Source of the DNA: a virus
Taxonomy: Duplodnaviria; Caudoviricetes
IMG/VR virus record: IMGVR_UViG_3300033153_001952
Coordinates: 1-53,702 of that record
Reading direction: 5' to 3' (one strand)
DNA length: 53,702 nt
The first letter of the stretch is position 1; every line of letters starts with the position of its first letter. The notes beneath the pieces were generated by a model. That model was not told the DNA's origin and searched no databases. It saw only the letters and a program-made list of their open reading frames with translations. Positions 7,609 through 53,702 of this stretch are shown in pieces. Position numbers and translations under genes: made by a program.

Positions 7609-8496
7609 TTAAAATTCAATCCAAGGATCACCAACATTAATAGTCTTGATACCGAGCTCCTGCCAAGTACGGCACATAACTGGTCGGTCATCAATAGCCA
7701 TGCAGACATTACACTTACCATCCAACTCATTCCAAAGAAGTTCTTCTTTAATGATTGAGTCTTTACGGTTGTCGCCAGCTTCGCGCATGTACAGTGAAAA
7801 GTGTATAGGTACGTTGATATCAAGCCATTGCTTAGTTTCATCATAGCAGCAGCCATCACGCCCAGACAAAAATACAATCTTGTAGCCGTCACGCTTAAGG
7901 CCAACAACTATATCAATCACTTCTTCAATAGGTTCATCCTCACCAACCTTATCCCAATGGAACGGCCCTCTACCAGCCATACGAGCCACTGTACCATCAA
8001 CATCTACGATAACAGTTTGTGGTAGTGACCAATCCTGTACATACTGCTTACGGCCCTTATACTTCAGCCACTGTCCATACATACGAGCAATTACAGAGTG
8101 GCCCACACCATTAGCACGACGAGCATCACGCTTCCAAGCCTCTTCTAGTGAGATGGGGAACTCTTTAATCTCTACTTCAAACCCAGCCTTCTCTAGATAC
8201 GCAATAAGCAACTTACGATACTTAGGGTTAATATTAGTGTCTGAGATAATAACATCATGACCAAAACCTCTGACAAGCTCAATCTCACTATACTGAATAT
8301 CAGTAACTTTAGATTCATTCTTCCATTTATACTTAGCCCAGTTGCGCTCACCCTTGCAGAAGATCTCGAAGCGGATATCATCACGATTGACATTATGCCA
8401 CTGCCTACAGTTTAACCGCCACTGCTCTTTGATAAACTCCTCTGCCCAAGTAGATTTGCCTGAGCATGGAATCCCTACTGTCACTATTGCTTTCAT
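7609..8496 (-). CDS. pseT: Polynucleotide 5'-kinase/3'-phosphatase (T4 PseT-like)
   Basis: P-loop GIPCSGKST, NRDDIR, HAD DVDGT, SGR, RKDSIIK, IDDR. Confidence 0.95.
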   Translation of the reverse strand: MKAIVTVGIPCSGKSTWAEEFIKEQWRLNCRQWHNVNRDDIRFEIFCKGERNWAKYKWKNESKVTDIQYSEIELVRGFGHDVIISDTNINPKYRKLLIAYLEKAGFEVEIKEFPISLEEAWKRDARRANGVGHSVIARMYGQWLKYKGRKQYVQDWSLPQTVIVDVDGTVARMAGRGPFHWDKVGEDEPIEEVIDIVVGLKRDGYKIVFLSGRDGCCYDETKQWLDINVPIHFSLYMREAGDNRKDSIIKEELLWNELDGKCNVCMAIDDRPVMCRTWQELGIKTINVGDPWIEF

Positions 8497-9794
8497 TCTG
8501 CGCTCTCCTCACTCTCAACATCAGCCTCACCCTTATCAAGCATCTTAGTCTCATGACCAAGGAACTTGAAGCTCTTGTACTTGAAGCATTCAATACCGTT
8601 TCCACGCTCCACTCGAACTACAATACCCTCCTCTGGCACTTTGTTATTGCAAAAGTAAGAGTCTTGGTCATACACATACTCGCGTCCTAGGTGACCAAAG
8701 AAGGATTCAGAGAAAGACTCGCCCTGATTGTATGCTTCGTCGTGTACACGATCATCCATGAGTTCATATGCATTTCCGTAGTAAATCTCAGGAACCGTCT
8801 TAAACCCCATCTCTTCACAACGATGCTTAACCTGATGCCAAGGCATCTCAATAACATCACCATCCTCATTGGTAGAGGTCATTCGGTATACGTAGATCTC
8901 GCTAGTATTCGGAGCACATTTATAATCGTAACCTTTCTGTATCTCTTTACCACCGTCCGTGTGACCGACAAGTTCATAATAGACGCTTTCACCTTTACGT
9001 AGTTTGGTCTTGAACATGTTACCTGCCATCGTCCACAAGTCGCTGTCATAGAAGTGGTGGTATACTTTATCGTCATTTTTAATCACCTTTCGTGAACTAA
9101 ACACGTAGTCGTAGTAAGTATCGACAATATCCAGACCGAGCTTCTTACCAATGAGGTTCCAGATGCTAAATTCAGTCTTCTTGCACTTGACATATGCCGC
9201 CACACCTGAAGTACCGTGGAACTTCCAAGTGATAGATATGAGATCGTCTGGCTGCACTTTGTGCATATTACGGCCAAGCTGAGCCGTATCGAAGTGGAAA
9301 TTAAACTGCCCCTCAACCACACGCGACTCGCGCTTAGCTTTCTTGCCGTTAAGGCTGTTGCCTTCGGACTGCATACGCTTTGGTAGTTCAAACTTCTTAC
9401 TAACTTGCATACCAGCTACGATGTCAAGGTCATCACCATCCTCAAGAATTAGAGCTGCAAACTCAGGTATCTTGAAGAAGTCAGTAATAGTCATGAAATA
9501 ACCCATAGACTTCTCACCACGGAAGCTCTGAGCCCGTACACGGCGGTTCTTATCGAACATACCACCAGCAGGCTTACCATCCTCATCTTTACGACGAATC
9601 AAATCATTAGCGTCTGCCAGCTCCTGCCCAATCTGAGCTTCAAGTGGGAAGTAGATCCCAACATCACCCTCTTTAGCATCTAAGCCTACGATGATGTTGT
9701 TACCGAAAATGGTGGTACACATAAGCCGGTCTGCATTACTATGCTTGCGTACTTCGCCTAGCCGTACCACAACTGCACTATAATTACTACTCAT
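8493..9794 (-). CDS. ATP-dependent RNA ligase with N-terminal OB-like domain (DRB0094/Rnl2-like)
   Basis: HSNADRL N-terminus, motif I KFHGTS, YYEL, EGIVVR, KYKS. Confidence 0.85.
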   Translation of the reverse strand: MSSNYSAVVVRLGEVRKHSNADRLMCTTIFGNNIIVGLDAKEGDVGIYFPLEAQIGQELADANDLIRRKDEDGKPAGGMFDKNRRVRAQSFRGEKSMGYFMTITDFFKIPEFAALILEDGDDLDIVAGMQVSKKFELPKRMQSEGNSLNGKKAKRESRVVEGQFNFHFDTAQLGRNMHKVQPDDLISITWKFHGTSGVAAYVKCKKTEFSIWNLIGKKLGLDIVDTYYDYVFSSRKVIKNDDKVYHHFYDSDLWTMAGNMFKTKLRKGESVYYELVGHTDGGKEIQKGYDYKCAPNTSEIYVYRMTSTNEDGDVIEMPWHQVKHRCEEMGFKTVPEIYYGNAYELMDDRVHDEAYNQGESFSESFFGHLGREYVYDQDSYFCNNKVPEEGIVVRVERGNGIECFKYKSFKFLGHETKMLDKGEADVESEESAE

Positions 9795-10796
9795 TTAAGC
9801 CTCCTTAGCTGTACAATCCCTACATACAATATTCTCGTAAATAGCGAGTAATTTATTATTAAAGAATTCAGGGTCTACTGAATCGGGTAAGTCGCTACTA
9901 TCCGCTAATTTGCTAACAATGTCAACAATACTTTCGAGCTCTGGCTGAACATTGGTTGTAAAGTCAAACCTACCTTGCTTCACATCGAGAATATACCGAG
10001 TCTCAGGTAGTGGATAAGAGAACGTGCCTTCTGAGTATAGATACTTTAGTTGGTAGCCAGCACGTAGTGCGTGAGATACAGCTTTCCAATCTACACCATT
10101 ATTCTCTTTAGCTAGCCGAGCTCTCTCACCATACTCACCCCACATCCTATCGAGGTGTCCACGAAACTCCTCTAACTTGACAGTAGATTGATACTTGCGA
10201 CCTAGAATCTCGTAGAATACATGGTTACCAGTACCAGTCTCCATAACAACAACACCTGAGTGGTCTGTCTTAGGGAGTAACCTGATAATATCACCTACAA
10301 TTGCGTACCTATCAGGTACACCTCCCTCTCTAAATATGTCGTCATGTTCGCTAACCTCTGAGATAGCTTCTTCAAGGGTCTTCATCCGTGAGCCTTTAAT
10401 ACCGTATTTATATGCCTGCTTCTTAACGTAGCCCATGTACGCGCTCATATCCTTGGATAGGAATAGCTCTCGGTTAGCCACAAGCCAATCCCACAAAGGG
10501 GATGATTCAAGGAAATGCGTGGCCGGTGCGTGGAGCATATCAATAGCAACAGTCTCTCCTTTGATAGCTAGTTTCAGGAATGCTTGGAGGGAGTACATCT
10601 CAGTATCTACATCGTCTGCACCATTCTTACTGTTATTATCTCCAGTGGATTCTGCATATGAGAAGTTACCCTCTCCTTTGAGAATCTGTTCCTTAGTAGG
10701 CAGAGAGATGCCCTTATAGTCACGGTCAGACTCTGGGGTATCCAATCCGTACATATGACTGCCGAACAGCATCTTTACAATTACTTTATTCTCCAT
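9795..10796 (-). CDS. DNA pol-beta superfamily nucleotidyltransferase (RlaP/T4 NrdC.11-like)
   Basis: FGSHMYGLDTPESDRDYKG; KAVSHALR; start moved to MENKV. Confidence 0.85.
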   Translation of the reverse strand: MENKVIVKMLFGSHMYGLDTPESDRDYKGISLPTKEQILKGEGNFSYAESTGDNNSKNGADDVDTEMYSLQAFLKLAIKGETVAIDMLHAPATHFLESSPLWDWLVANRELFLSKDMSAYMGYVKKQAYKYGIKGSRMKTLEEAISEVSEHDDIFREGGVPDRYAIVGDIIRLLPKTDHSGVVVMETGTGNHVFYEILGRKYQSTVKLEEFRGHLDRMWGEYGERARLAKENNGVDWKAVSHALRAGYQLKYLYSEGTFSYPLPETRYILDVKQGRFDFTTNVQPELESIVDIVSKLADSSDLPDSVDPEFFNNKLLAIYENIVCRDCTAKEA

Positions 10797-10953
10797 TATC
10801 AACCTCCTCTTCAATAAGTTTAGCATTCTCCATCCTCACTATACGCATAGCTTCCTCATAAGTCCAGTAGTTTGAGTCCTGAACCTCATACATAGTGCAA
10901 TAACCATCATCTTCAAAGTAGATGTTGTAGTAGCAACCTTCAAAATTAGACAT
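10786..10953 (-). CDS. Small acidic hypothetical protein (not in track)
   Basis: GGAGG RBS; MSNFEGCYYNIY...DNGE*. Confidence 0.5.
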   Translation of the reverse strand: MSNFEGCYYNIYFEDDGYCTMYEVQDSNYWTYEEAMRIVRMENAKLIEEEVDNGE

Positions 10954-41826: not shown

Positions 41827-42030
41827 TTAAAATTTAATATTAATATGAGCTCTACCAACAACATAGCTAGGGCTCGAACTACTTATGGTATGTGTCTCTA
41901 ACACTTCTATACCTATATCAGATACAGCCAACCCTGTACTGTTGGAAAACTTAGCTACTAACTCACTAACTGAAGCAGCTATGTTACGTTCCAGTTCAGT
42001 TTTTAACCTTAGTGCGTCTGACACCTCCAT
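41827..42030 (-). CDS. Hypothetical protein
   Basis: TGATG overlap with the NAMPT-like gene. Confidence 0.55.
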   Translation of the reverse strand: MEVSDALRLKTELERNIAASVSELVAKFSNSTGLAVSDIGIEVLETHTISSSSPSYVVGRAHINIKF

Positions 42031-43760
42031 CAGAGAGTGCCTAGACGCTTACGAATCCCACTGAGAGTCTGTGGATCAGTGTGTACACCATCCTCAAACA
42101 CTGTAGTCAATAGTGACTCAGCTTCCTGCTCAGGTGTAGCCGAGTTTCGTAGCTTAAGCTCACCGTCCTCGCTATACACTTGCAGCAGACCTTTAGCAGA
42201 CTTCTTTGTGCCATCATCTGTAGCAGGGTCTTTAAACAGCTCACGCGGTACACCATTCACTTCACCGTAGGTAGCTTTCACCGCCATGCCGAAAGTATCT
42301 CGTGTAACATATTGGTAAGTGTATGAGCCAATACCAAATACTACATTAGTGGAAGCAAAGCCTTTAGCCTCAAGTCGCTTGAAGATATCAGCAGCTCGTG
42401 CAAGGGTGATAGAGTCGCCGTAGATGAGTCCAATGTGCTCATCAAGCTCCTTGTATCCCTTCTCGTTAACAGAGCCTCCAAAGGTGTTCCAGAGGCACTG
42501 TACGCTGCCTAGCATTGCTGGAGTTGCTTCAACACCCGTACCCTTAGTGAGTCCTGCATCGCCGTAGCAGTCTATATAATAAAACTCTTTATCGTGACGA
42601 TTATACTCAAAAGTAGTTGACAACGAGACTGCCTCTCCCTCTACAAGGACTACTGTAGTGTACTCTTCATTACCACAACAGTACGAACCTTCGCAAGCCT
42701 CTTTAGCTTCGTACCAGTGACGGTCATTAATCTCTGCGATTGCATCATCAAGAGTTTTGAAGCTCTCAGCAGTGCCACAAATAATATCAGCAGGATCTCC
42801 ACTGTCAGGACGAATCACTACCTTATTGAAGCCAGCAGCATCTGGTGTACGTGCCATAATCTCATCCTTCAATGAGGGGATGGTTACAGTAAGTACGTTC
42901 CAGTAGTCCCAAGTATCACTCACAATAGAAATGATACCTGTCGGGTAGAGCTCAGTGATAAGGCGCTTGTAAGTATCAAACTCACCTTCCAAACTGCCCA
43001 TACACATTACGCTGTGCTCAGTAGCATTAACGCTGCCACCAATAAACTCACAACTAGCATCAGCTTGGTAGTAGCCTTCCAGATAATCAATAGCTGGAAT
43101 AGTGTCAGTGCCTAAGAATGACAGCAGGTGACCAGCTCCGCACTTAGCAGCATCATCTACACCGGACATACCGCGCATACTGAAATCGTGACCTTGGAAA
43201 GGTACAAAGCCAGCAAACCCGCCAGTGTCAGCAGCCCACTTATCAAACAGCAGCCGGTACTCATACGCAATGGTAGCGATAGTGGCAGGCTTCCACAGCT
43301 CAGCAGACATAGCAGTTTCAACAAAGTTAGTCAGCCAGAAGAAATTCGGCAGAGTATTAACAATGGTGAACATAGGGATGCCGATGGGTACACGAGTACC
43401 TTCTGGCAGAGCCTTAATCTTCAATGGTAGGAAGCCCAGATCGTGCAGAGCTTCAATGTGCTCTACAGGAGGCATACCATTACTGAGTGATGTACCTAGA
43501 CGATGCTTATAGCGCTCCACTACAGAACTCTTAGGCTGATTGAAGAACATATCATTCCACCAATCAATCAGATTATACTGAATGAAGCCACTCAAGCCAA
43601 ACTGGACAACCTTGTTGTCGAATGTTGCCTTATCCACAGGAGCATGTTTAGCACTACGTGGTGTCATGTTTGAGTACACCAGATCAGTATTGTCTGGATA
43701 CTGTGGTGGGTGACCTGTCTTGTAGAAATCAGCACCTGTAATTGGGTATGTCTTAATCAT
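42030..43760 (-). CDS. Nicotinamide phosphoribosyltransferase-like (Namat/NadV family)
   Basis: DFYKTGH, HDFSMRG, ATEHSVM, SIVSDTWD, IRPDSGDP, IYGDSIT, KKSAKG. Confidence 0.93.
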   Translation of the reverse strand: MIKTYPITGADFYKTGHPPQYPDNTDLVYSNMTPRSAKHAPVDKATFDNKVVQFGLSGFIQYNLIDWWNDMFFNQPKSSVVERYKHRLGTSLSNGMPPVEHIEALHDLGFLPLKIKALPEGTRVPIGIPMFTIVNTLPNFFWLTNFVETAMSAELWKPATIATIAYEYRLLFDKWAADTGGFAGFVPFQGHDFSMRGMSGVDDAAKCGAGHLLSFLGTDTIPAIDYLEGYYQADASCEFIGGSVNATEHSVMCMGSLEGEFDTYKRLITELYPTGIISIVSDTWDYWNVLTVTIPSLKDEIMARTPDAAGFNKVVIRPDSGDPADIICGTAESFKTLDDAIAEINDRHWYEAKEACEGSYCCGNEEYTTVVLVEGEAVSLSTTFEYNRHDKEFYYIDCYGDAGLTKGTGVEATPAMLGSVQCLWNTFGGSVNEKGYKELDEHIGLIYGDSITLARAADIFKRLEAKGFASTNVVFGIGSYTYQYVTRDTFGMAVKATYGEVNGVPRELFKDPATDDGTKKSAKGLLQVYSEDGELKLRNSATPEQEAESLLTTVFEDGVHTDPQTLSGIRKRLGTL

Positions 43761-44155
43761 TTACCACCTCCGTTTAAATAGTTAGCTACATCTTGAAGGT
43801 CTGTAGTGAAGATACCTCCGTTACGAACAACCATCTTACCAACCTCTGTTAGACTGTGCAACTCTTTTTCTTCAAAAGCATACCACCCGTCTTCAGCTAG
43901 CACACAAAATACAGTTTTTTCGGGCCGCTTGTTACTGTCATCAATAACTTCCGCTAGCGAGTAGTACCCCTGCATACGTGGAGTAATAACATATAGGCAG
44001 TAGTCACATACCTCACGCTGGTGAAGCTCTTCAGCTTTACAATCCTCATTCCAATCATCAACTACAGGATTGAAATAAACAATCTCAAGAAGTCCGATAA
44101 GCTCCTCACGCCATGTTGAATCAGCGCAAGTGCCTCCTAAAAATACCTTATCCAT
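43757..44155 (-). CDS. Nucleoside 2-deoxyribosyltransferase-like protein
   Basis: VFLGG...WRE...FNP...W...E and SLAE (putative catalytic Glu). Confidence 0.75.
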   Translation of the reverse strand: MDKVFLGGTCADSTWREELIGLLEIVYFNPVVDDWNEDCKAEELHQREVCDYCLYVITPRMQGYYSLAEVIDDSNKRPEKTVFCVLAEDGWYAFEEKELHSLTEVGKMVVRNGGIFTTDLQDVANYLNGGGK

Positions 44156-44984
44156 TATAACCTTCTCCTTCTACTCTACCGCCACTCTGATATACTGAAT
44201 CTGTGGTGTATATATTATCATAAATACCATACAAAGCAGACGTACCTTTAGTGAAGAATCCATGAGTGATGAATAAGTTCAGGTGGCACTGCTCATTCAA
44301 ATCTCGCATTGCGCTTCCAAGTCCGAGGAAAGTTCCCCCGCCATCACAGATATCATCTACAACTAGGAAGTGCATATTACTACGCACAAGCTCTGGGTTG
44401 CGGATATCTATAGAAGTTATCTGCCCTGTCGATACATCACGTACCTTATCAGCATAAACAATATCAGTGATACCAAACTCCTTAGCGATAGCTTGAGTCT
44501 TTTTAACTGAACCTGCATCTGGCGATACTAATGTATAGCCAACCATACCATCAGCCCCTAGAGTCTCGTCTAGGATATCTCTCTGGTGTATGTTAAAGCA
44601 ATTATCAATTAAGGCTGTAGCAACATCACTGTGGTTATCCCAAGTAGTTACTTGATTAAAGCCCATATCATTGATGATGTTAGCGAACACCTTCAGTGAA
44701 AAGCTCTCTCCTACATTACACACTCTATCCTGTCGAGAGTATGGTACGTAAGGCATCACTAACTCAGTGAAGTAGATGAACTTAAACTTTGAGCGTAGTG
44801 CTTCAAGCAGTTGAGCTACAACAATTATGCCGTTGTTACCAAGCAGCCTCCAGTCATACACGATGCGTACACTCACTGCGCGAGCTAGATTTATCTCAGG
44901 AATAACAACACCAAGCTCCCCTGAAGGGAACTCATTAATGTGCGCCTCAAACTCTCTATCGTTTATGAAGAAGTTAAGCTTCAT
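44148..44984 (-). CDS. Ribose-phosphate pyrophosphokinase-like (Adps/Prs family)
   Basis: FPSGE, MPYVPYSRQDR, DNHS, SPDAG, VDDICDGGGTF, THG. Confidence 0.92.
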   Translation of the reverse strand: MKLNFFINDREFEAHINEFPSGELGVVIPEINLARAVSVRIVYDWRLLGNNGIIVVAQLLEALRSKFKFIYFTELVMPYVPYSRQDRVCNVGESFSLKVFANIINDMGFNQVTTWDNHSDVATALIDNCFNIHQRDILDETLGADGMVGYTLVSPDAGSVKKTQAIAKEFGITDIVYADKVRDVSTGQITSIDIRNPELVRSNMHFLVVDDICDGGGTFLGLGSAMRDLNEQCHLNLFITHGFFTKGTSALYGIYDNIYTTDSVYQSGGRVEGEGYNG

Positions 44985-45128
44985 TGATAGAACCCTCGAC
45001 TTGCTTAGCAACTCCATCAAGAATCTCCATCACGTTGCTAATAATCCCTACCTTGTACGATTCAGTACGGACAAGGATATTCTTAACAGTGGTTAGCTCA
45101 CGCAGGATATCTTCTGGCGTTGCTTCTT

Positions 45129-45323
45129 TTAATTCAGACATAGTTTATACCCCTTATCATGTAAGTCTCTTTTAGTTTGTGTATACCAGTCAGTACCTCG
45201 CTGAGAATCCCAGTTTCTTAGGGCTGCATGACAGAACTTCGATAGTTGCTCGTCATTACTACACTTTCCTTCTACAAGAGTACTAATCAGCCACCGCAAT
45301 GCCGTGTTAAAATCTCCAGTCAT
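45129..45323 (-). CDS. Hypothetical protein
   Basis: GGAGG RBS; promoter TTGACA-17-CATCAT at 45379..45351. Confidence 0.55.
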   Translation of the reverse strand: MTGDFNTALRWLISTLVEGKCSNDEQLSKFCHAALRNWDSQRGTDWYTQTKRDLHDKGYKLCLN

Positions 45324-45432
45324 AATACCTCCTAGTTAATTCGTATGGGGATGATGGCACAGATAACCAGCCGTGTCAAGGCTAATTATCACTTTAATGT
45401 GATAGTTTAATCTATATATTATCACACCAACT

Positions 45433-46020
45433 TTATCCGCACTTACTATCACCGCAGTTAAGGCAAGCATTGCAGCCATCCATAAGTATCACAGCCTTCT
45501 CACCACACTCATTACACACCGTAGCTGACTCAGGGTATTGCCCTTCCTCTATAACCTCTACAGGCTCTTGTACTACGGCCTGCACAGGCTCCTTTACATG
45601 GTGCTCAAGCACATAACCAATAGCTGCTGGGATGGAGGCAATAAACTTCGGCTTATCCATACCTACAACCTTCATGAACCCTACACCACCCGAAGGATCT
45701 GCCGTAGCCTTTAGCTCCTCTATCATAAATGCAACATCATCTGCTCTTCTGAACACAGCTGACATCATCCGCATTAGCGAGGTTACCCACTGGAAGTTCT
45801 TAGTATCTTTAGTGTTAATGAATATCTCGGCTGGTTTACCTTCATCATCATTATTGATAGTGATATAATAAGCATCCTGCATCGACCCACCCTTAACCTT
45901 GTAGGTGAATCCTCGCAGAGTCTCAGGCCGCGCCTTAAGCTTAAATGGCTCACTTACAATCTTCTTTTCAGTAGTGCTACCAACACTGTAGCTTACAATT
46001 TTACTTTTAATTATTACCAT
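45433..46020 (-). CDS. nrdJb: Class II ribonucleotide reductase, small (TSCPD/NrdJb) subunit
   Basis: RPETLRG.TYK, YITIN, EIFIN, C-terminal CNECG...CNACLNCGDSKCG. Confidence 0.88.
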   Translation of the reverse strand: MVIIKSKIVSYSVGSTTEKKIVSEPFKLKARPETLRGFTYKVKGGSMQDAYYITINNDDEGKPAEIFINTKDTKNFQWVTSLMRMMSAVFRRADDVAFMIEELKATADPSGGVGFMKVVGMDKPKFIASIPAAIGYVLEHHVKEPVQAVVQEPVEVIEEGQYPESATVCNECGEKAVILMDGCNACLNCGDSKCG

Positions 46021-48038
46021 TAATATTTACCGTAAGTACCTTCTTTAAGTGAATCGAAAAGATTAGACGCTTTGTGTGTTTCACCATCATAGAGCACATC
46101 CTCATTACCAGCCGCTTCGTACTCAGTTCCGTCCTCCGATGTAAAGGTATAGATTGTATTTGCCAAGTCTTCATCCTTAACAAGCACACCACTGAATGCT
46201 TCTGGGTTATATCTGAAAGTAGTGCAACCTTTCAAGCCCTTCTCATAAGCATACAGATAGATATCTTTGAAGTCCTCGAAAGGATAGTCAGTTGGTACGT
46301 TGCAAGTTTTACTGATGGAACTATCTATCCAGTACTGTGCAGCTGCCTGAATATCTACGTGAGCTTTGGGACTAATAGTATTAGTATCCACAAAGTAATC
46401 TGGTAGTTTAGCATCCTCACCGTACATGTGGGTGTAGAGAAGCTTCTCGTAAGACATAACTTTAACTTGCTCTTTAGTCTTCTTACCTTCACGAATAATG
46501 TTACGTAAATACTCGTGAGCAAAGCTAGGCTCAATACCGTTACTTGCATTGTTGGCTAGAGATAGAGCTATGGTTCCGGTTGGTGCAATAGAGCTATGGT
46601 GCGTGAATCTACATCCATACTCTTTAGCTTTAACTAGTAAGTCAGGACGCTCTGCCCAGATACGCTCCATGTACTTCGACTCTACCCACAAATTAGCGCC
46701 ATGAGTGTTGTACTCTTCAAACCACTCGGCCATAATAGGTGCAGCGCCCTTCTCTTTAGCTAACTCAATACCCACTTCAAAACCTGTGATAGCCAAGTCA
46801 TGAGTTACATTTGATGTGAACTTTATAGACTCTTCAGATCCATACTTAATACCTAGCATAGTTAGTGCTGAGCCTAGACCTAAATAACCCATACCGTGAC
46901 GGCGCTTACGAATAATCTCAGCACGCTGCTCTTCAAGAGGTAAGCCATTAATCTCTACCACGTTATCAAGCATACGTGTGAATATCTTAACTACCTTTTT
47001 AAATTCTTCGTAGTCGAAACTAGCTTCACTTGTAAATGGATTCTTAACAAACTTAGTTAGATTAACTGAGCCTAGTAGGCAAGCACCGTACGGAGGGAGT
47101 GGTTGCTCTCCGCATGGATTCGTAGCTCTAACATCTTCACAGAACCAGTTATTGTTTAGATCATTAATCTCATCAATCAATATGAATCCCGGCTCAGCGA
47201 AGTCATAGGTGGATTCCATTATTAAATCCCATAACCACCGCGCCTTGACTACCTCATATACTTTACAAGCTACCTTACCAGCATCGTCGTAGGTATAGCC
47301 TTCGCTCTTTAAAGGCCAGTTATCTTCCCACACAACCGAATCAGTATTAAGCAGATTAGTCTCTTTGATATGCAAAGGAAAAACTAACTTCCATTCAGTA
47401 TCGTTCTTTACTGCTTCCATGAAATTCTTAGTAATAAGAGCTGAGAGGTTAAACTGACGTAAACGACCATCCTCTCTCTTAGCCGTAATGAAGTCTGCAA
47501 TGTCTGGATGTCGTACATCAAACGTCATCATTTGTGCGCCTCTACGGCCACCAGCAGAGCTAATGGTGAAGCACATCTTATCGTATATATCAGCAAAGGT
47601 AAGTGGGCCTGAAGTGTGAGCACCAACGCCAGCTACTAATGCGCCACTCGGACGTAGAGTGGAGAACTCGTAACCAATACCGCAACCGCCATGCAATGTA
47701 AGACCAGCTTCATGCGACTTACGCATAATGTCGTCGATAGAGTCCTCAATAGTACCACTCACTGTGCAGTTAATAGTAGAGGTAGATGGTTTATATTCTC
47801 CGGCCCCTGCATTAGCTATGATTCTTCCAGCAGGGGTAGCACCCATACGCATAGCGTACATGAATTGATCATACCAGAAATCACTGTCTTCTGGCTCTTG
47901 GTTAGCCAACTCACGAGCTACCCTTGAGAAAGTACCTTCAATGTCTGCATCTACGGGATTTTGTTCTTGATCTTTCAACCTGTACTTCTTATCCCAAATA
48001 TCTTCCGAAGCTGGTTGCAGCTTAATGTTTTCTACCAC
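46020..48038 (-). CDS. nrdJa: Class II (B12-dependent) ribonucleotide reductase, large subunit
   Basis: PAGRI, INC, GGRRGAQM, TNPCGEQ, IAPTGT, SISKT. Confidence 0.93.
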   Translation of the reverse strand: MVENIKLQPASEDIWDKKYRLKDQEQNPVDADIEGTFSRVARELANQEPEDSDFWYDQFMYAMRMGATPAGRIIANAGAGEYKPSTSTINCTVSGTIEDSIDDIMRKSHEAGLTLHGGCGIGYEFSTLRPSGALVAGVGAHTSGPLTFADIYDKMCFTISSAGGRRGAQMMTFDVRHPDIADFITAKREDGRLRQFNLSALITKNFMEAVKNDTEWKLVFPLHIKETNLLNTDSVVWEDNWPLKSEGYTYDDAGKVACKVYEVVKARWLWDLIMESTYDFAEPGFILIDEINDLNNNWFCEDVRATNPCGEQPLPPYGACLLGSVNLTKFVKNPFTSEASFDYEEFKKVVKIFTRMLDNVVEINGLPLEEQRAEIIRKRRHGMGYLGLGSALTMLGIKYGSEESIKFTSNVTHDLAITGFEVGIELAKEKGAAPIMAEWFEEYNTHGANLWVESKYMERIWAERPDLLVKAKEYGCRFTHHSSIAPTGTIALSLANNASNGIEPSFAHEYLRNIIREGKKTKEQVKVMSYEKLLYTHMYGEDAKLPDYFVDTNTISPKAHVDIQAAAQYWIDSSISKTCNVPTDYPFEDFKDIYLYAYEKGLKGCTTFRYNPEAFSGVLVKDEDLANTIYTFTSEDGTEYEAAGNEDVLYDGETHKASNLFDSLKEGTYGKY

Positions 48039-48050
48039 TTCTGTACCTCC

Positions 48051-48359
48051 TCAATCATCTTTAACAAACACCCCATTAACCATCTCACCGCTGCGTTTAC
48101 TTATCACATTGTAAGCTGACTGCAAACAATCTGTAGCATTGAGTCCATACAGTTCTGATAAAATTAATAGTGTGACTTGGATATCACCGATAGCATCAAT
48201 AATCTCATCTCTGTCTTCGTGGTTTACTGCATCTGCCAACTCACCAACTTCACTTACAGTTTTAAGCAGCTGACTCTTAGGATCTGAGTTTTGCAGGATA
48301 CCTTTACGTCCTGCCCATACCAGCACATCGTGGTATAGGTCTTCATAGTCTTTTAGCAT
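48051..48359 (-). CDS. MazG-like nucleotide pyrophosphohydrolase
   Basis: KTVSEVGELA...DAIGD...R.G.MVNG.FVK. Confidence 0.85.
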   Translation of the reverse strand: MLKDYEDLYHDVLVWAGRKGILQNSDPKSQLLKTVSEVGELADAVNHEDRDEIIDAIGDIQVTLLILSELYGLNATDCLQSAYNVISKRSGEMVNGVFVKDD

Positions 48360-51125: not shown

Positions 51126-51491
51126 CTATTTACCCCTCTCAGAGTTAGTCTTAATCTGGTGACATGGTTTACAAAGTACCTGAAAACCGTCTTCGGGAGT
51201 TAATCTCTCCAAAAACTCTTTCAAATCATCGCCACACTTTAACGAGCCAACTGGAGTTATGTGGTCAATCTGTACTTCTTTATCCATAAACCACTCTTCG
51301 CAATGATTACACTGATACTCAAACTTCTGCCTTTTATTCGGCCCTTTGTATGGCCGCTTAGCTTCTTGCTTGCAATGTGTTGCTGGTTTCCAATATCTGA
51401 AATGTCTGCGTAATGCGGATCTCACTGAGCCCCAATATGCAGCTTCAGACATCGTACCTTTATTGCGTGTCTTCTCTACACGTCTACCCAT
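51126..51491 (-). CDS. HNH endonuclease
   Basis: CNHC...QIDHITP...QVLCKPCH. Confidence 0.85.
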   Translation of the reverse strand: MGRRVEKTRNKGTMSEAAYWGSVRSALRRHFRYWKPATHCKQEAKRPYKGPNKRQKFEYQCNHCEEWFMDKEVQIDHITPVGSLKCGDDLKEFLERLTPEDGFQVLCKPCHQIKTNSERGK

Positions 51492-51706
51492 TAGTAAACC
51501 ACCTCTAACTTAACTTCGTCAGTAAGTCGGTCTTTAGACATACTCCAACCATGCTCTGAAATGAGCGCTAGTCTACTATTGCCTGTTAACCTAGCAAGAG
51601 CTATAGCCATATCCTTTAGAATGTCTTCAGCGCCCTTACAGAAGCCTTTGTTACGCTCTGCAACCAAGTGTGCTGACACTCGCATACTCTCATTAGTTAC
51701 TGGCAC
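51491..51706 (-). CDS. Hypothetical protein
   Basis: GGAGG RBS. Confidence 0.5.
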   Translation of the reverse strand: MPVTNESMRVSAHLVAERNKGFCKGAEDILKDMAIALARLTGNSRLALISEHGWSMSKDRLTDEVKLEVVY

Positions 51707-52677
51707 TAGGAACCTCCCACATCTTGTAACTACTATCTTCGTTATACTCTCTAACCATCCACAATAAAATAGCGTTCTCCTTTAATTGCGGTACAGCGAT
51801 CTTCAGTGCATTATCTGCATCTGGGTATAGAGCTACATATTGAGCCAATACAGCTTCATACATTTCAAACTCAGTGTTACAGTCAGCTAACACTTCAATA
51901 GCTTTAGCTGGGCCTACACCTACACGCCTGACTCTCCACTGCCCCTTCTTCTTTCCTGACTTATACTCACCACCTACTTTAAGCCCACACCCTACGATAT
52001 TATCAGTGTCATCTCCGGTTAGTAGTTGCTTGTAGAAGTTATAGATAGCTTCTTCCTCTGATATCCAAACAACACCTGCATCTGGATACTGCCAGTTAAA
52101 GTGCAAGCCAGCAGAGTTCTTCAGGTCTTTATCCTTAGTTGCTATGATTGTCTTAGCTGTTTTATCAGTCTTCACTATATAAGTCCTCATACTGAGCAAT
52201 ACTCAGCATATCGTCAGCCTCTGCACCCTCAATAATCTCTGCACCCCATTCACTTACTAAGTGGTCACGGATAACTTGATGATGTATTGGCTTAGCAGAA
52301 GTACGGTTACCTTTGTATGGGACTATTGTTGCAACGTCTATACGGTAGTTACCATCACCTGTTAGGAATCCTCTATGGAATTGAGCGTTTGTTTTAAATA
52401 TCAATCCATTAATGAAAACATCTACGGCAGCTAGACATAGCTCTACCTTATCTGGGATTATCTTAGTATCATACTCTTCGTTTACGATTACTTTATGAGT
52501 TTTTGGATAGGCTTCATAGAGGGACTTCTTTGATTTATAATCGACACCTTTATACGAATAAATAGTGGACTGTGCTGCAAAACCAAGCTGGTATGCAATC
52601 ACGTCCATATCAATTAGTAGTGTGATGCCTGAGTTACATTTTACTGGTTCATTGTTGAACGTAAAACTCAGTGACAT
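51693..52677 (-). CDS. 5'-3' exonuclease (T7 gp6/FEN-like), split across two frames near 52175
   Basis: N-half LIDMD, YKGNR, EADD; C-half DKDL, GDDTDNIVG, GVGPAKA. Confidence 0.85.
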
Positions 52678-52693
52678 ATTACACTTCCTTAAA

Positions 52694-52930
52694 TTACATA
52701 AAACCTAGTTGCTTAACCTCGTCAATAACATCTGATGCTTTCTCAGCAGCTTCCTCAGCAGCATAGATATCATAAGCAGCTTTGACACGAGCATTAAAAT
52801 CAACTGCTGCCATATCGAACCCTTCCTTGACATCCTCTCCTAGCATCTTACGGAAATCTTGCTCTGCTCTAACTCGTGCCATAGAGTCTACACCCTTCTG
52901 CACTTGTTCTTTAAATGCTTCTTTGTTCAT
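52694..52930 (-). CDS. Small helical protein, possibly T4 DsbA-like DNA-binding
   Basis: AGGAG RBS; weak pattern similarity only. Confidence 0.45.
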   Translation of the reverse strand: MNKEAFKEQVQKGVDSMARVRAEQDFRKMLGEDVKEGFDMAAVDFNARVKAAYDIYAAEEAAEKASDVIDEVKQLGFM

Positions 52931-52964
52931 ACATTCTCCTAGTGTTATGTAATGGCTATACCGA

Positions 52965-53084
52965 TGTGTGACGCAATGGGACTCGAACCCATGACCAGCA
53001 GGTTCTCAGCAACTTTAAGATAGGATATCTCCTACCAGCTATTACTGAGTTTACCTGTTGCTCTTCCAACTGAGCTACACGCCT
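52965..53084 (-). ncRNA. tRNA-like RNA with a 44-nt insertion in the anticodon loop
   Basis: D arm GCTC-AGTTGGAA-GAGC, T arm ATGGG-TTCGAGT-CCCAT, 51-nt anticodon loop region. Confidence 0.75.
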
Positions 53085-53140
53085 CGCCTCTATCTAGAAT
53101 GAGACTTGTTACACATCTATATAACCACTACTGTTTAAAT

Positions 53141-53224
53141 CGGTGCGAAAATAGATTAGAATCCGTATAGAAAGAGGAGACACCCTCTGATCTACTTTGA
53201 CATGGACTTTCACCTATTCTCGCA
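53141..53224 (-). ncRNA. Rod-like RNA with acceptor-like terminal stem
   Basis: 13-bp stem TGCGAGAATAGGT/ATCTATTTTCGCA, nested helices, ACCG end. Confidence 0.6.
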
Positions 53225-53228
53225 TGTT

Positions 53229-53342
53229 TGGCAGATAGTGATGGATTCTCACCACCGAGTAGCCTCATTGGCCGAGACTAGCATAAGTTCAGCTCGTGTG
53301 TACACACTCTCTTTTTGGTCGCTTACTTCCTGCTTACTATCT
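53229..53342 (-). ncRNA. CCA-ended tRNA-like RNA lacking a canonical D/anticodon arm
   Basis: Acceptor AGATAGT/ACTATCT + GCCA; T-like arm GGTGG-TGAGAAT-CCATC. Confidence 0.7.
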
Positions 53343-53348
53343 ATTGTC

Positions 53349-53475
53349 CGGTGCGGATGGCAGGGCTCGAACCTACACTCTCTTAATAGAACCGTTTTCG
53401 CCCTACCTCGCATTGAATAAGCAATACTTAGTAGTTAGCTACTCACAGCGTGTCTACCAATTCCACCACATCCGC
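53349..53475 (-). ncRNA. tRNA-Leu-like RNA with expanded anticodon region
   Basis: GCGGATGTGGTGGAATTGGTAGACAC 5' half, GTAGG-TTCGAGC-CCTGC-CATCCGC-A 3' half, 47-nt loop region. Confidence 0.78.
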
Positions 53476-53480
53476 ATTAT

Positions 53481-53557
53481 TGGTTCCCCCGACTGGATTC
53501 AAACCAGTGACCCGCACCTTAGAAGGGTGCTGCTCTATTCAGCTGAGCTACAGGGGA
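53481..53557 (-). tRNA. tRNA-Arg(TCT)
   Basis: Cloverleaf; GCACC-CTTCTAA-GGTGC; encoded CCA. Confidence 0.92.
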
Positions 53558-53702
53558 ATTGTCTAGTTACTCGTCAAGCATTGCTTGAAGGTCTGCAATA
53601 TCTGTATCCTCAAGTGCAGCATCCTGCTTCGTAGCAATGATGGAGCGGATACGATCTTTGCGTTGCTTAGTCACTGCGGCCTTCTCTGCCTTCTCAGCAG
53701 CT

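What the first reader, a model, noticed from the sequence alone, without database searches (positions are those of the whole stretch)
52965..53084. tRNA whose own insert base-pairs with and hides a canonical-looking anticodon loop
Seen: between anticodon-stem halves ACAGG and CCTGC lie 51 nt. The last seven, CT-GAG-AA, fit a canonical loop (C32 U33, anticodon GAG, A37 A38). The preceding 44 nt contain CTCAGTAAT, which pairs with GTTGCTGAG (9 bp) and covers the anticodon, topped by a GGTAGGA/TCCTATC hairpin. The short variable loop is not Leu-type, the acceptor stem is G-U rich, and CCA is not encoded. Inference: either a caged tRNA activated by excision and ligation (the phage encodes PNK and an RNA ligase), or a nuclease-proof mimic. 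The insert is far too short for a group I intron.
Basis: partly seen in the sequence, partly recalled or inferred. Interest (0 to 1): 0.78.

Follow-up and report, generated by a model that had tools for sequence, protein, structure and literature searches.

The report
Phage tRNA gene with rod-shaped insert
A phage tRNA-derived gene has its anticodon loop replaced by a long, stable hairpin, as does its neighbour, so as transcribed it cannot read codons and is either an unusual spliced tRNA or a tRNA look-alike.

Summary
On the minus strand, 53084-52968 is a tRNA-like gene (Rfam 33.8 bits, cut-off 29). It has 51 nt between the anticodon-stem halves, folded into 5+9+7 bp of helix (-26.8 kcal/mol; 0 of 1000 shuffles as stable; antisense -16.6). 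The "canonical loop" is not significant, since 36% of shuffled inserts give one.

New findings:
- A second interrupted tRNA, derived from Leu(UAG), lies at 53475-53352 with a 19-bp rod and no canonical loop.
- A 20-bp leader-trailer helix brackets the first gene.
- The first gene's body is closest to a phage tRNA-Ala and keeps G3.U70, which conflicts with the GAG anticodon.
- There is no group I intron, ribozyme or BHB motif, and EndA and RtcB are absent from the window. PNKP, RNA ligase and RlaP are present.
- No homologue of either insert was found.

Interrupted tRNA genes are common in IMG/VR. However, 7 of 13 near-complete phages carrying them lack all three RNA ligase families tested.

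My reading is a non-decoding tRNA mimic (0.40), a spliced intron (0.30) or a decaying pseudogene (0.25). It is a new variant of the "enigmatic" phage tRNA introns reported in Lak megaphages.

The parts
52968..53084 (-). tRNA-derived gene #1 (the finding). Position 1 is 53084 and discriminator C73 is 52968. D arm, T arm, variable loop and all core tertiary positions are canonical. The acceptor stem has an A1.A72 mismatch, G3.U70 and two further G.U pairs. No CCA is encoded.
   Evidence: Rfam RF00005 at 33.8 bits; ARAGORN with introns allowed; fold.
53010..53053 (-). 44-nt intervening sequence as ARAGORN delimits it, between G31 (53054) and C32 (53009). Shifting the boundary by one base gives the same anticodon.
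53003..53009 (-). CTGAGAA, the 'canonical-looking' loop, with GAG at 53007-53005. Directly 5' of it lies TTGC (53012-53009), which can equally be aligned with the UGC anticodon loop of the closest tRNA-Ala.
   Evidence: Chance expectation for such a loop is 36%.
52999..53057 (-). Rod of 5 bp (53057-53053 with 53003-52999), 9 bp (53049-53041 with 53013-53005) and 7 bp (53036-53030 with 53025-53019). A 3-nt AAA bulge and an AGCU/UUAAA internal loop interrupt it, and a GAUA loop caps it.
   Evidence: Energy -26.8 kcal/mol, with 0 of 1000 shuffles as stable.
53111..53131 (-). 5' arm of a 20-bp leader-trailer helix (13 + 7 bp, three G.U) that brackets gene #1.
   Evidence: Inverted repeat I1; folds of 201 nt (-76.8 kcal/mol, z -6.63, 0 of 200 shuffles). 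The helix coexists with an enforced acceptor stem at -72.3.
52949..52969 (-). 3' arm of the leader-trailer helix. It overlaps tRNA positions 72-73 and ends 19 nt before the ATG (52930) of the next ORF.
53352..53475 (-). Second interrupted tRNA (#2), with a Leu-type body: perfect acceptor stem, A73, A15/U48 and a long variable arm. 47 nt (53443-53397) lie between stem halves CTGTG (53448-53444) and AACGG (53396-53392), folded as a 19-bp rod. TAG is kept at positions 34-36, but with G33 and C37.
   Evidence: Rfam 39.1 bits; fold; alignment to tRNA-Leu(TAG) of three phages; no clean excision; coordinates.
53481..53557 (-). Intact tRNA-Arg(TCT) heading the array. It starts 9 nt after the stop codon of the upstream ORF.
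53085..53351 (-). 267-nt non-coding spacer with a long irregular hairpin (53224-53144) and a T-arm-like hairpin (53256-53240) that has a non-canonical loop.
   Evidence: No Rfam family matches. Similarity to the tRNAs is not significant.
7609..10826 (-). RNA-repair cassette: PNKP (7609-8496), RNA ligase (8493-9794) and RlaP nucleotidyltransferase (9795-10826). It is 42 kb from the tRNA array, and any link to the array is inferred only.
   Evidence: Pfam; weak similarity to the DRB0094-type ligase; no PDB relative by sequence.

Best explanation
The element is a tRNA-derived gene with an alanine-type body and G3.U70. Its anticodon loop has been opened by a 40-44-nt insertion. The insertion and what is left of the loop pair into a 21-bp irregular rod. 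A 20-bp leader-trailer helix brackets the whole gene. It is one of two such genes in tandem; the other derives from tRNA-Leu(UAG).

Shown: it sits in an unusually structured 620-nt non-coding array, embedded between ORFs with no predicted promoter or terminator.

Inferred:
- The array is transcribed with its neighbours.
- The acceptor, D and T elements let the ordinary tRNA end-processing enzymes release the RNA.
- It persists with its rod as an anticodon-less tRNA mimic rather than becoming a standard decoder.
- The rod, not a 7-nt loop, is the selected feature.

Its role is guessed with low confidence. It may be a decoy for host factors that bind or cut tRNAs, or a processing and stability module of the operon transcript. 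Because AlaRS (via G3.U70) and LeuRS do not read the anticodon (established knowledge, recalled), both RNAs could still be aminoacylated.
For: - All tertiary-core positions and the D and T arms are canonical.
- Relative to the closest tRNA-Ala (55 of 73 positions identical), changed stem pairs are mostly pair-preserving: 29:41, 50:64, 4:69, 6:67 and 7:66.
- In contrast, the loop nucleotides have changed to pair with the insert. In #2, TAG is kept but U33 is G and position 37 is C, relative to intact phage tRNA-Leu(TAG). No single excision gives a canonical loop for #2 (best score 3.9 against 7.2 for good cases).
- Both rods are of similar size (21 and 19 bp) and are strand-specific (-26.8 against -16.6, and -18.1 against -5.2 kcal/mol).
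- The 201-nt and 636-nt regions fold far better than shuffles (z -6.6 with 0 of 200; z -7.9 with 0 of 20).
- The excised product of #1 would combine a GAG anticodon with G3.U70, C73 and a class I body.
- In IMG/VR, 49 of 97 distinct interrupted class I candidates likewise give no canonical tRNA by one excision.
Against: - No RNA evidence exists at all.
- No homologue was found, so selection on the rod rests on thermodynamics and G.U asymmetry only.
- A 7-nt loop with U33 and A37 can be recovered for #1.
- Rod-shaped anticodon-insert helices are the normal look of spliced pre-tRNAs.
- 48 of 97 interrupted IMG/VR candidates do become perfect tRNAs in silico, against 0.8% of shuffles.
- The Ala-plus-Leu 'anticodon-blind' argument is post hoc. 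It was not borne out more widely: G3.U70 occurs in 2 of 49 unclean and 1 of 48 clean candidates.
- No function for such a mimic is demonstrated.
Confidence: 0.4

Rival explanations
1. It is an intron-containing pre-tRNA. The 44-nt insert (53053-53010) is cut out by a protein endonuclease, possibly RNase III acting on the rod or another enzyme. The exons are then joined by the phage PNKP/RNA ligase or by host RtcB. The product is a class I tRNA with anticodon GAG that becomes active only after splicing, which is the reader's 'caged tRNA'.
For: - ARAGORN finds a 76-nt cloverleaf after excision.
- My excision score of 5.5 is reached by only 3.2% of shuffled arms.
- Inserts on the 5' side of the anticodon at 31/32 occur in clean IMG/VR tRNAs, for example the L026 family.
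- 48 of 97 interrupted candidates become canonical against 39 of 4850 shuffles.
- The phage encodes PNKP, a ligase and RlaP.
- CTT plus CTC make up 269 of 853 Leu codons in 28 phage ORFs.
- Lak megaphage tRNAs carry short unexplained introns.
Against: - Given the stem halves, the loop arises in 36% of shuffled inserts.
- There is an identity conflict: G3.U70, C73 and no long variable arm alongside a Leu anticodon.
- The 1:72 pair is weak, there is an A27.C43 mismatch, and no CCA is encoded.
- Its Rfam score of 33.8 is lower than that of 9 interrupted tRNAs longer than 100 nt elsewhere, which score 43.3-49.8.
- Neighbour #2 yields no canonical loop.
- There is no BHB geometry: the 3' junction lies inside a 9-bp helix.
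- EndA and RtcB are absent from the window, and no ribozyme family matches.
- 7 of 13 near-complete phages with interrupted tRNAs lack PF09414, PF09511 and RtcB.
Confidence: 0.3
2. It is a decaying tRNA pseudogene. A tRNA-Ala gene was disrupted by insertion of a palindromic DNA segment and is drifting, as are #2 and the spacer. The structure is a relic of the palindrome and has no function.
For: - Multiple defects: A1.A72, A27.C43, C73, and no CCA although 3 of 3 intact tRNAs encode it.
- #2 has G33 and C37.
- The spacer holds a T-arm-like hairpin with a broken T loop.
- The insert is centred on a GATATC palindrome, seen directly in the sequence.
- No homologue was found anywhere.
Against: - Non-Watson-Crick positions in the rod and the bracketing helix are mostly G.U on the transcribed strand: 6 G.U in 41 bp. 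This makes the sense fold 10 kcal/mol better than the antisense fold.
- Stems changed relative to the nearest tRNA-Ala keep pairing.
- All tertiary-core bases are intact.
- 620 nt of dead DNA would be unusual in a densely coded phage genome (inference).
- The hairpin sequence is not repeated elsewhere in the window: 1 match at up to 3 mismatches.
Confidence: 0.25

Closest known systems
Short 'enigmatic' introns in Lak megaphage tRNAs (Devoto et al. 2019, PMC6784885; preprint 10.1101/356790; passages read)
   Same: These are phage tRNA genes longer than expected and missed by bacterial-mode tRNA finders. Their inserts are tens of nucleotides long, match no Rfam family, and have an unknown mechanism.
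   Different: The Lak cases were delimited with eukaryote-mode tRNAscan and include Tyr(GTA) at the canonical position and a tRNA-within-tRNA. Here the insert lies on the 5' side of the loop, the product has an identity conflict, and a leader-trailer helix is present. Their intron sequences are in a supplementary table that I could not see.
Archaeal and eukaryotic protein-spliced pre-tRNA introns (review PMC4090602; search listing and start of abstract only; details recalled)
   Same: Size range is similar. The insert pairs with the anticodon to extend the anticodon helix, and a heal-and-seal route by PNK plus ligase is possible.
   Different: There is no bulge-helix-bulge: a 3-nt bulge is followed by 9 bp, and the 3' junction lies inside the helix. 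No EndA is in the window. The host appears bacterial (portal and tRNA relatives).
Group I introns in bacterial tRNA anticodon loops (10.1101/2020.01.27.920355; listing and start of abstract only)
   Same: They interrupt the anticodon loop of bacterial-type tRNAs, including tRNA-Leu.
   Different: 44 nt is far below a catalytic core, and no Rfam intron match appears at E up to 10.
T4-type tRNA repair by Pnkp and RNA ligase (review PMC3400036, listing only; biology recalled)
   Same: The window encodes PNKP, an RNA ligase and RlaP. These enzymes could join tRNA halves.
   Different: That system repairs damage done by host anticodon nucleases, which suffices to explain the cassette. No link to this gene is shown.
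tRNA-like domains of tmRNA and bacterial Y RNA (YrlA)
   Same: They are tRNA-shaped RNAs without a decoding anticodon loop. tmRNA is charged through G3.U70 (recalled).
   Different: ARAGORN finds no tmRNA. Neither tmRNA nor YrlA (RF02553) matches in 52800-53702 at E up to 10. Here the D arm is complete and there is no tag reading frame.
'Hairpin + ACAGCAA' insert family seen here in IMG/VR phage tRNAs
   Same: The insert has the same size (41-56 nt) and the same side of the anticodon arm. Some members sit at 31/32 exactly as here.
   Different: The window's insert lacks the motif after its hairpin and pairs with the loop instead of closing on itself. It is not a member.

Membership tests
tRNA (Rfam RF00005) | Cloverleaf with conserved D/T-loop and core nucleotides, scoring above the gathering cut-off | tested here: met
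   33.8 bits against a cut-off of 29; all core positions present.
tRNA (Rfam RF00005) | 7-nt anticodon loop in the gene as encoded | tested here: not met
   51 nt lie between the stem halves.
tRNA-Leu (as ARAGORN names it) | Long variable arm and A73 (bacterial Leu identity, recalled) | tested here: not met
   5-nt variable loop and C73. The closest body is tRNA-Ala, with G3.U70 present.
Group I intron in tRNA | Catalytic core of roughly 200 nt or more, matching the Rfam intron model | tested here: not met
   The insert is 44 nt. Only tRNA and a weak DnaX match appear at E up to 10.
Small self-cleaving ribozymes (hammerhead, twister, pistol, hatchet and others) | Match to the Rfam covariance model | tested here: not met
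   No match at E up to 10 in 52800-53702.
BHB (archaeal-type) tRNA intron | Two 3-nt bulges separated by a 4-bp helix at the junctions | tested here: not met
   The fold has a 3-nt bulge, then 9 bp, with the 3' junction inside the helix.
BHB (archaeal-type) tRNA intron | Splicing endonuclease EndA available | tested here: inconclusive
   PF01974 is absent from the window, but the record is only 56% complete and the host is unknown.
Phage tRNA with short unexplained intron (Lak type) | Phage tRNA gene that becomes a canonical tRNA when an internal non-group-I segment is removed | tested here: inconclusive
   A cloverleaf with a U33/A37 loop results, but with A27.C43, A1.A72 and an isotype conflict. 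Score 5.5 against 7.2 for clean cases.
Phage tRNA with short unexplained intron (Lak type) | Insert conserved in related phages, or alleles with and without it | not testable with these tools
   No homologue in 8 scans of viral contigs, 80 metagenome loci or 2.97 Mb of fetched loci.
   The sequence after the hairpin is TTAAAGTTGCTGAG, which pairs with the 5' part of the insert.
tmRNA / YrlA tRNA-like RNAs | Match to the family model, with a tag ORF or Ro-binding stem | tested here: not met
   ARAGORN finds no tmRNA. No Rfam match to either.

The most novel reading that the evidence does not exclude
Bacteriophages may have their own protein-dependent tRNA splicing. In this reading, the rod-type inserts of the two tandem genes hide the anticodon from host anticodon nucleases. 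An endonuclease acting on the rod cuts them out. The exons are healed and sealed by the phage PNKP-ligase-RlaP cassette, so the tRNA becomes active only in infected cells.

A bolder extension I put at about 0.04. The mature product keeps G3.U70, so it would carry alanine to CUC/CUU codons, which would be sense-codon recoding by a phage.
Probability: 0.18. Interest if true: 0.85.

Novelty: new variant of a known kind. Interest (0 to 1): 0.55.

Why it matters
Bacteria and their viruses are thought to lack protein-spliced tRNA introns, and the only report found for phages calls them enigmatic. This locus offers a compact test case. It holds two tandem interrupted tRNAs with strong, strand-specific rods, a bracketing helix, and an RNA heal-and-seal cassette in the same genome.

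Either outcome would add a new element to the tRNA-centred arms race between phages and hosts, whether that is a phage tRNA-splicing route or a class of anticodon-less tRNA mimics.

The pattern scans also show that such genes are numerous in viral metagenomes and are invisible to default tRNA finders. Phage tRNA repertoires are therefore being undercounted.

Tried and rejected
Searches for relatives:
- Homologues sought through the neighbouring exonuclease gave 0.
- Ribonucleotide reductase gave 15 loci with no tRNA synteny. One ARAGORN 'intron' call in L008 was not confirmed by Rfam.
- A 261-aa neighbour protein in metagenome contigs gave 80 loci at about 50% identity, 638,626 nt in all, with 0 tRNAs.
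- Exact or degenerate DNA patterns from the gene gave 0, 0, 6 unrelated and 1 unrelated hits.
- blastn of both inserts and the spacer against 2.97 Mb of fetched loci gave chance-level hits only.

Tools and data that gave nothing:
- Public sequencing runs: none was listed and no RNA holder was listed.
- The scan of genome contigs gave no answer three times.

Ideas tested and dropped:
- Isotype by similarity of the halves to phage tRNAs was not diagnostic on its own.
- Spacer as a decayed copy of the tRNAs: local alignments were no better than shuffles.
- Insert as a repeated mobile palindrome: only a single copy in the window.
- 'Anticodon-blind synthetase' rule as a general property: G3.U70 is not enriched among unclean candidates, 2 of 49 against 1 of 48.
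- Neighbouring small ORFs as RNA endonuclease candidates: only an HNH and a MazG-like hit.

Step not completed: a count of hairpin stems in the ACAGCAA family. That script was not run and I did not repeat it.

Literature: seven full-text searches found no description of phage tRNA inserts beyond the Lak megaphage paper. Supplementary tables could not be seen.

Full report
WHAT IS THERE

The window is a complete IMG/VR virus record of 53,702 nt, judged 56% complete. Its closest cultured relatives are distant: the portal protein is 39.6% identical to that of Nitrincola phage 1M3-16.

On the minus strand, 53084-52968 matches the Rfam tRNA model at 33.8 bits (cut-off 29), with about 50 nt inserted in the anticodon loop.
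- ARAGORN misses it in default mode.
- With introns allowed, ARAGORN reports a 76-nt tRNA(gag) plus a 44-nt intron (53053-53010) directly after position 31.
- The D arm, T arm, 5-nt variable loop and all tertiary-core positions are canonical.
- The acceptor stem has an A1.A72 mismatch and three G.U pairs, among them G3.U70.
- The discriminator is C, and a G at -1 could pair with it.
- No CCA is encoded, whereas all three intact tRNAs of the window encode it.

IS IT MORE THAN CHANCE?

- A 9-bp helix (53049-53041 with 53013-53005) buries CTGAG.
- It is topped by a 7-bp hairpin and rests on the 5-bp stem, which gives 21 bp in all.
- The 61-nt arm has -26.8 kcal/mol against -9.7 +/- 2.7 for shuffles, and 0 of 1000 shuffles are as stable. 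The antisense strand reaches only -16.6.
- The loop with U33 and a purine at 37 is weak evidence. Given the stem halves, 7129 of 20000 shuffled inserts (36%) give such a loop by a single excision.

SURROUNDINGS

The gene is the last of an array on the minus strand.
- The array runs: intact tRNA-Arg(TCT) at 53557-53481, a second interrupted tRNA at 53475-53352 (Rfam 39.1 bits), a 267-nt spacer without credible ORFs, and then the gene in question.
- The array begins 9 nt after the stop codon of the upstream ORF and ends 37 nt before the ATG of the next ORF. No promoter-like or terminator-like site is predicted on that strand between them. Co-transcription is therefore likely, though inferred.
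- A 24-nt inverted repeat forms a 20-bp leader-trailer helix (53131-53111 with 52969-52949, three G.U) that brackets the gene.
- The 201-nt region folds at -76.8 kcal/mol (z -6.63; 0 of 200 shuffles).
- With the acceptor stem enforced, the helix stacks on it at -72.3.
- The whole 636-nt array gives z -7.9 (0 of 20 shuffles).

ANCESTRY

The Arg(TCT)-Leu tandem recurs in Aeromonas, Synechococcus and Salmonella phages, where the Leu gene is intact.
- Alignment shows that gene #2 is a tRNA-Leu(TAG) derivative.
- It keeps a perfect acceptor stem, A73, A15/U48 and the long variable arm. TAG is still at positions 34-36.
- But position 33 is G and position 37 is C, and 47 nt form a 19-bp rod.
- No single excision gives a canonical loop: the best score is 3.9, against 7.2 for good cases.

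For gene #1, the best-matching body is tRNA-Ala(TGC) of Aeromonas phage avDM12-TAAL.
- 55 of 73 positions are identical, giving a score of 35.
- The best of 409 IMG/VR tRNAs scores 31, and 26 other tRNAs from the named phage records and locus L332 score at most 26.
- Stem differences from that tRNA are mostly pair-preserving.
- TTGC, directly 5' of the 'canonical' loop, can be aligned with the Ala loop.

So two candidate anticodons, TGC and GAG, are both buried in the 9-bp helix. The only single-excision product would put a Leu anticodon on a G3.U70, C73, class I body.

COULD IT BE SPLICED?

Against splicing:
- Nothing in 52800-53702 matches a group I intron, a small ribozyme, tmRNA or YrlA at E up to 10.
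- The junction geometry is not bulge-helix-bulge.
- EndA and RtcB are absent from the window.
- Neighbouring small ORFs give only HNH and MazG-like hits.

For splicing:
- The phage encodes PNKP, an RNA ligase (PF09414; weakly like the DRB0094 type) and RlaP.
- These enzymes could seal exons, but they are sufficiently explained as a tRNA-repair cassette (recalled biology).
- CTT plus CTC make up 269 of 853 Leu codons in 28 ORFs. That is compatible with a decoder role but does not show it.

RELATIVES

I found none.
- All eight scans of viral contigs gave no sequence like either insert.
- The same holds for 80 metagenome loci and for blastn against 2.97 Mb of fetched loci.
- No sequencing run was listed.

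THE WIDER POPULATION

- Of 97 distinct class I candidates, 48 become perfect stem-loops by one excision, against 39 of 4850 shuffles. The other 49 do not.
- With a stricter cloverleaf filter, 88 of 201 candidates are clean.
- 37 of those 88 share a hairpin followed by an ACAGCAA-like motif. In 34 of the 37 it is inserted on the 5' side of the anticodon arm.
- Rfam names none of these inserts.
- Position 31/32 therefore has precedents, but the window's insert lacks that motif.
- Nine interrupted tRNAs longer than 100 nt elsewhere score 43.3-49.8 bits, higher than 33.8 and 39.1 here.

Among 50 virus records with interrupted tRNAs:
- PF09414 ligase occurs in 12, RtcB in 4 and Rnl1 in 7.
- Of the 13 records that are at least 90% complete, 6 have at least one of the three, one of them only by a sub-threshold match.
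- The other 7 have none, and 5 of those 7 carry clean interrupted tRNAs.
- A phage-encoded ligase is therefore not a general partner.

LITERATURE

Seven full-text searches found one relevant report. Lak megaphages carry tRNAs with 'enigmatic' introns, said there to be the first in phage tRNAs (passages read). Its intron table is supplementary and was not visible.

WEIGHING THE EXPLANATIONS

In both genes the tRNA body is kept, through the core bases and pair-preserving changes. The loop, in contrast, has been remodelled to pair with the insert, and the rods are strand-specific and of like size. I therefore favour a non-decoding tRNA mimic (0.40).
- A spliced, 'caged' tRNA remains quite possible for gene #1 (0.30).
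- A decaying pseudogene pair also remains possible (0.25).
- The argument that Ala and Leu synthetases ignore the anticodon is post hoc and did not generalise.

All functional statements are inferences, and no RNA was observed.

Noticed in passing
window 53352-53475 (-): A second interrupted tRNA, derived from tRNA-Leu(TAG). It has a 19-bp rod. At the base of the rod an AGUA/GAA internal loop resembles a loop-E/sarcin-ricin motif; that motif name is recalled and was not tested.
   Followed up: yes
window 53085-53351 (-): A 267-nt non-coding spacer (z -2.0). It has an 81-nt irregular hairpin (53224-53144) and a T-arm-like hairpin with a broken T loop (53256-53240). A 10-nt exact repeat (53304-53313 and 53375-53384) is shared with gene #2. 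No Rfam family matches.
   Followed up: partly
IMG/VR loci such as L026:6304-6878, L031:329-445, L032, L043, L070, L076, L121, L131: A family of 41-56-nt inserts in phage tRNA genes, each a hairpin followed by an ACAGCAA-like motif. There are 37 distinct clean cases, and 34 of them sit on the 5' side of the anticodon arm, often inside the stem at 28/29. Their removal restores perfect tRNAs of many isotypes. Several lie side by side in one array. The family is not in Rfam, and my literature searches did not find it.
   Followed up: partly
IMG/VR loci L223-L331 (for example L226, L229, L236, L303): Dozens of genes with a tRNA-Leu-type acceptor stem, D arm and T arm but a 60-90-nt central region. 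Some are Leu(TAA/CAA) genes with inserts at 32/33 or 34/35. Others have no recognisable anticodon arm.
   Followed up: no
L037, L039, L056, L061, L071, L082, L083, L090, L106, L122: Regex hits in which a second T-arm-like or tRNA-like sequence lies inside the span. These may be a tRNA within a tRNA, as reported for Lak phage tRNA-Thr, or closely packed genes.
   Followed up: no
L008:4510-4649 and L219:2014-2223: L008 holds a tRNA-like element with a perfect 7-bp acceptor stem and two T-arm-like hairpins, which Rfam does not detect. L219 holds a permuted tmRNA (RF04321, 66.3 bits) about 1 kb from an interrupted tRNA.
   Followed up: no
window 51693-52677 (-): An exonuclease (phrog_107) is split into two ORFs that overlap by 35 nt in different frames. 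An HNH endonuclease gene lies just downstream (51126-51491). The split could be a frameshift, a sequencing error or a true split gene.
   Followed up: no
window 42030-48359 (-): A nucleotide-metabolism block: NAPRTase-family protein, PRPP-synthetase-like protein, nucleoside deoxyribosyltransferase-like protein, TSCPD protein, class I/II-type ribonucleotide reductase large subunit and a MazG-like protein.
   Followed up: no
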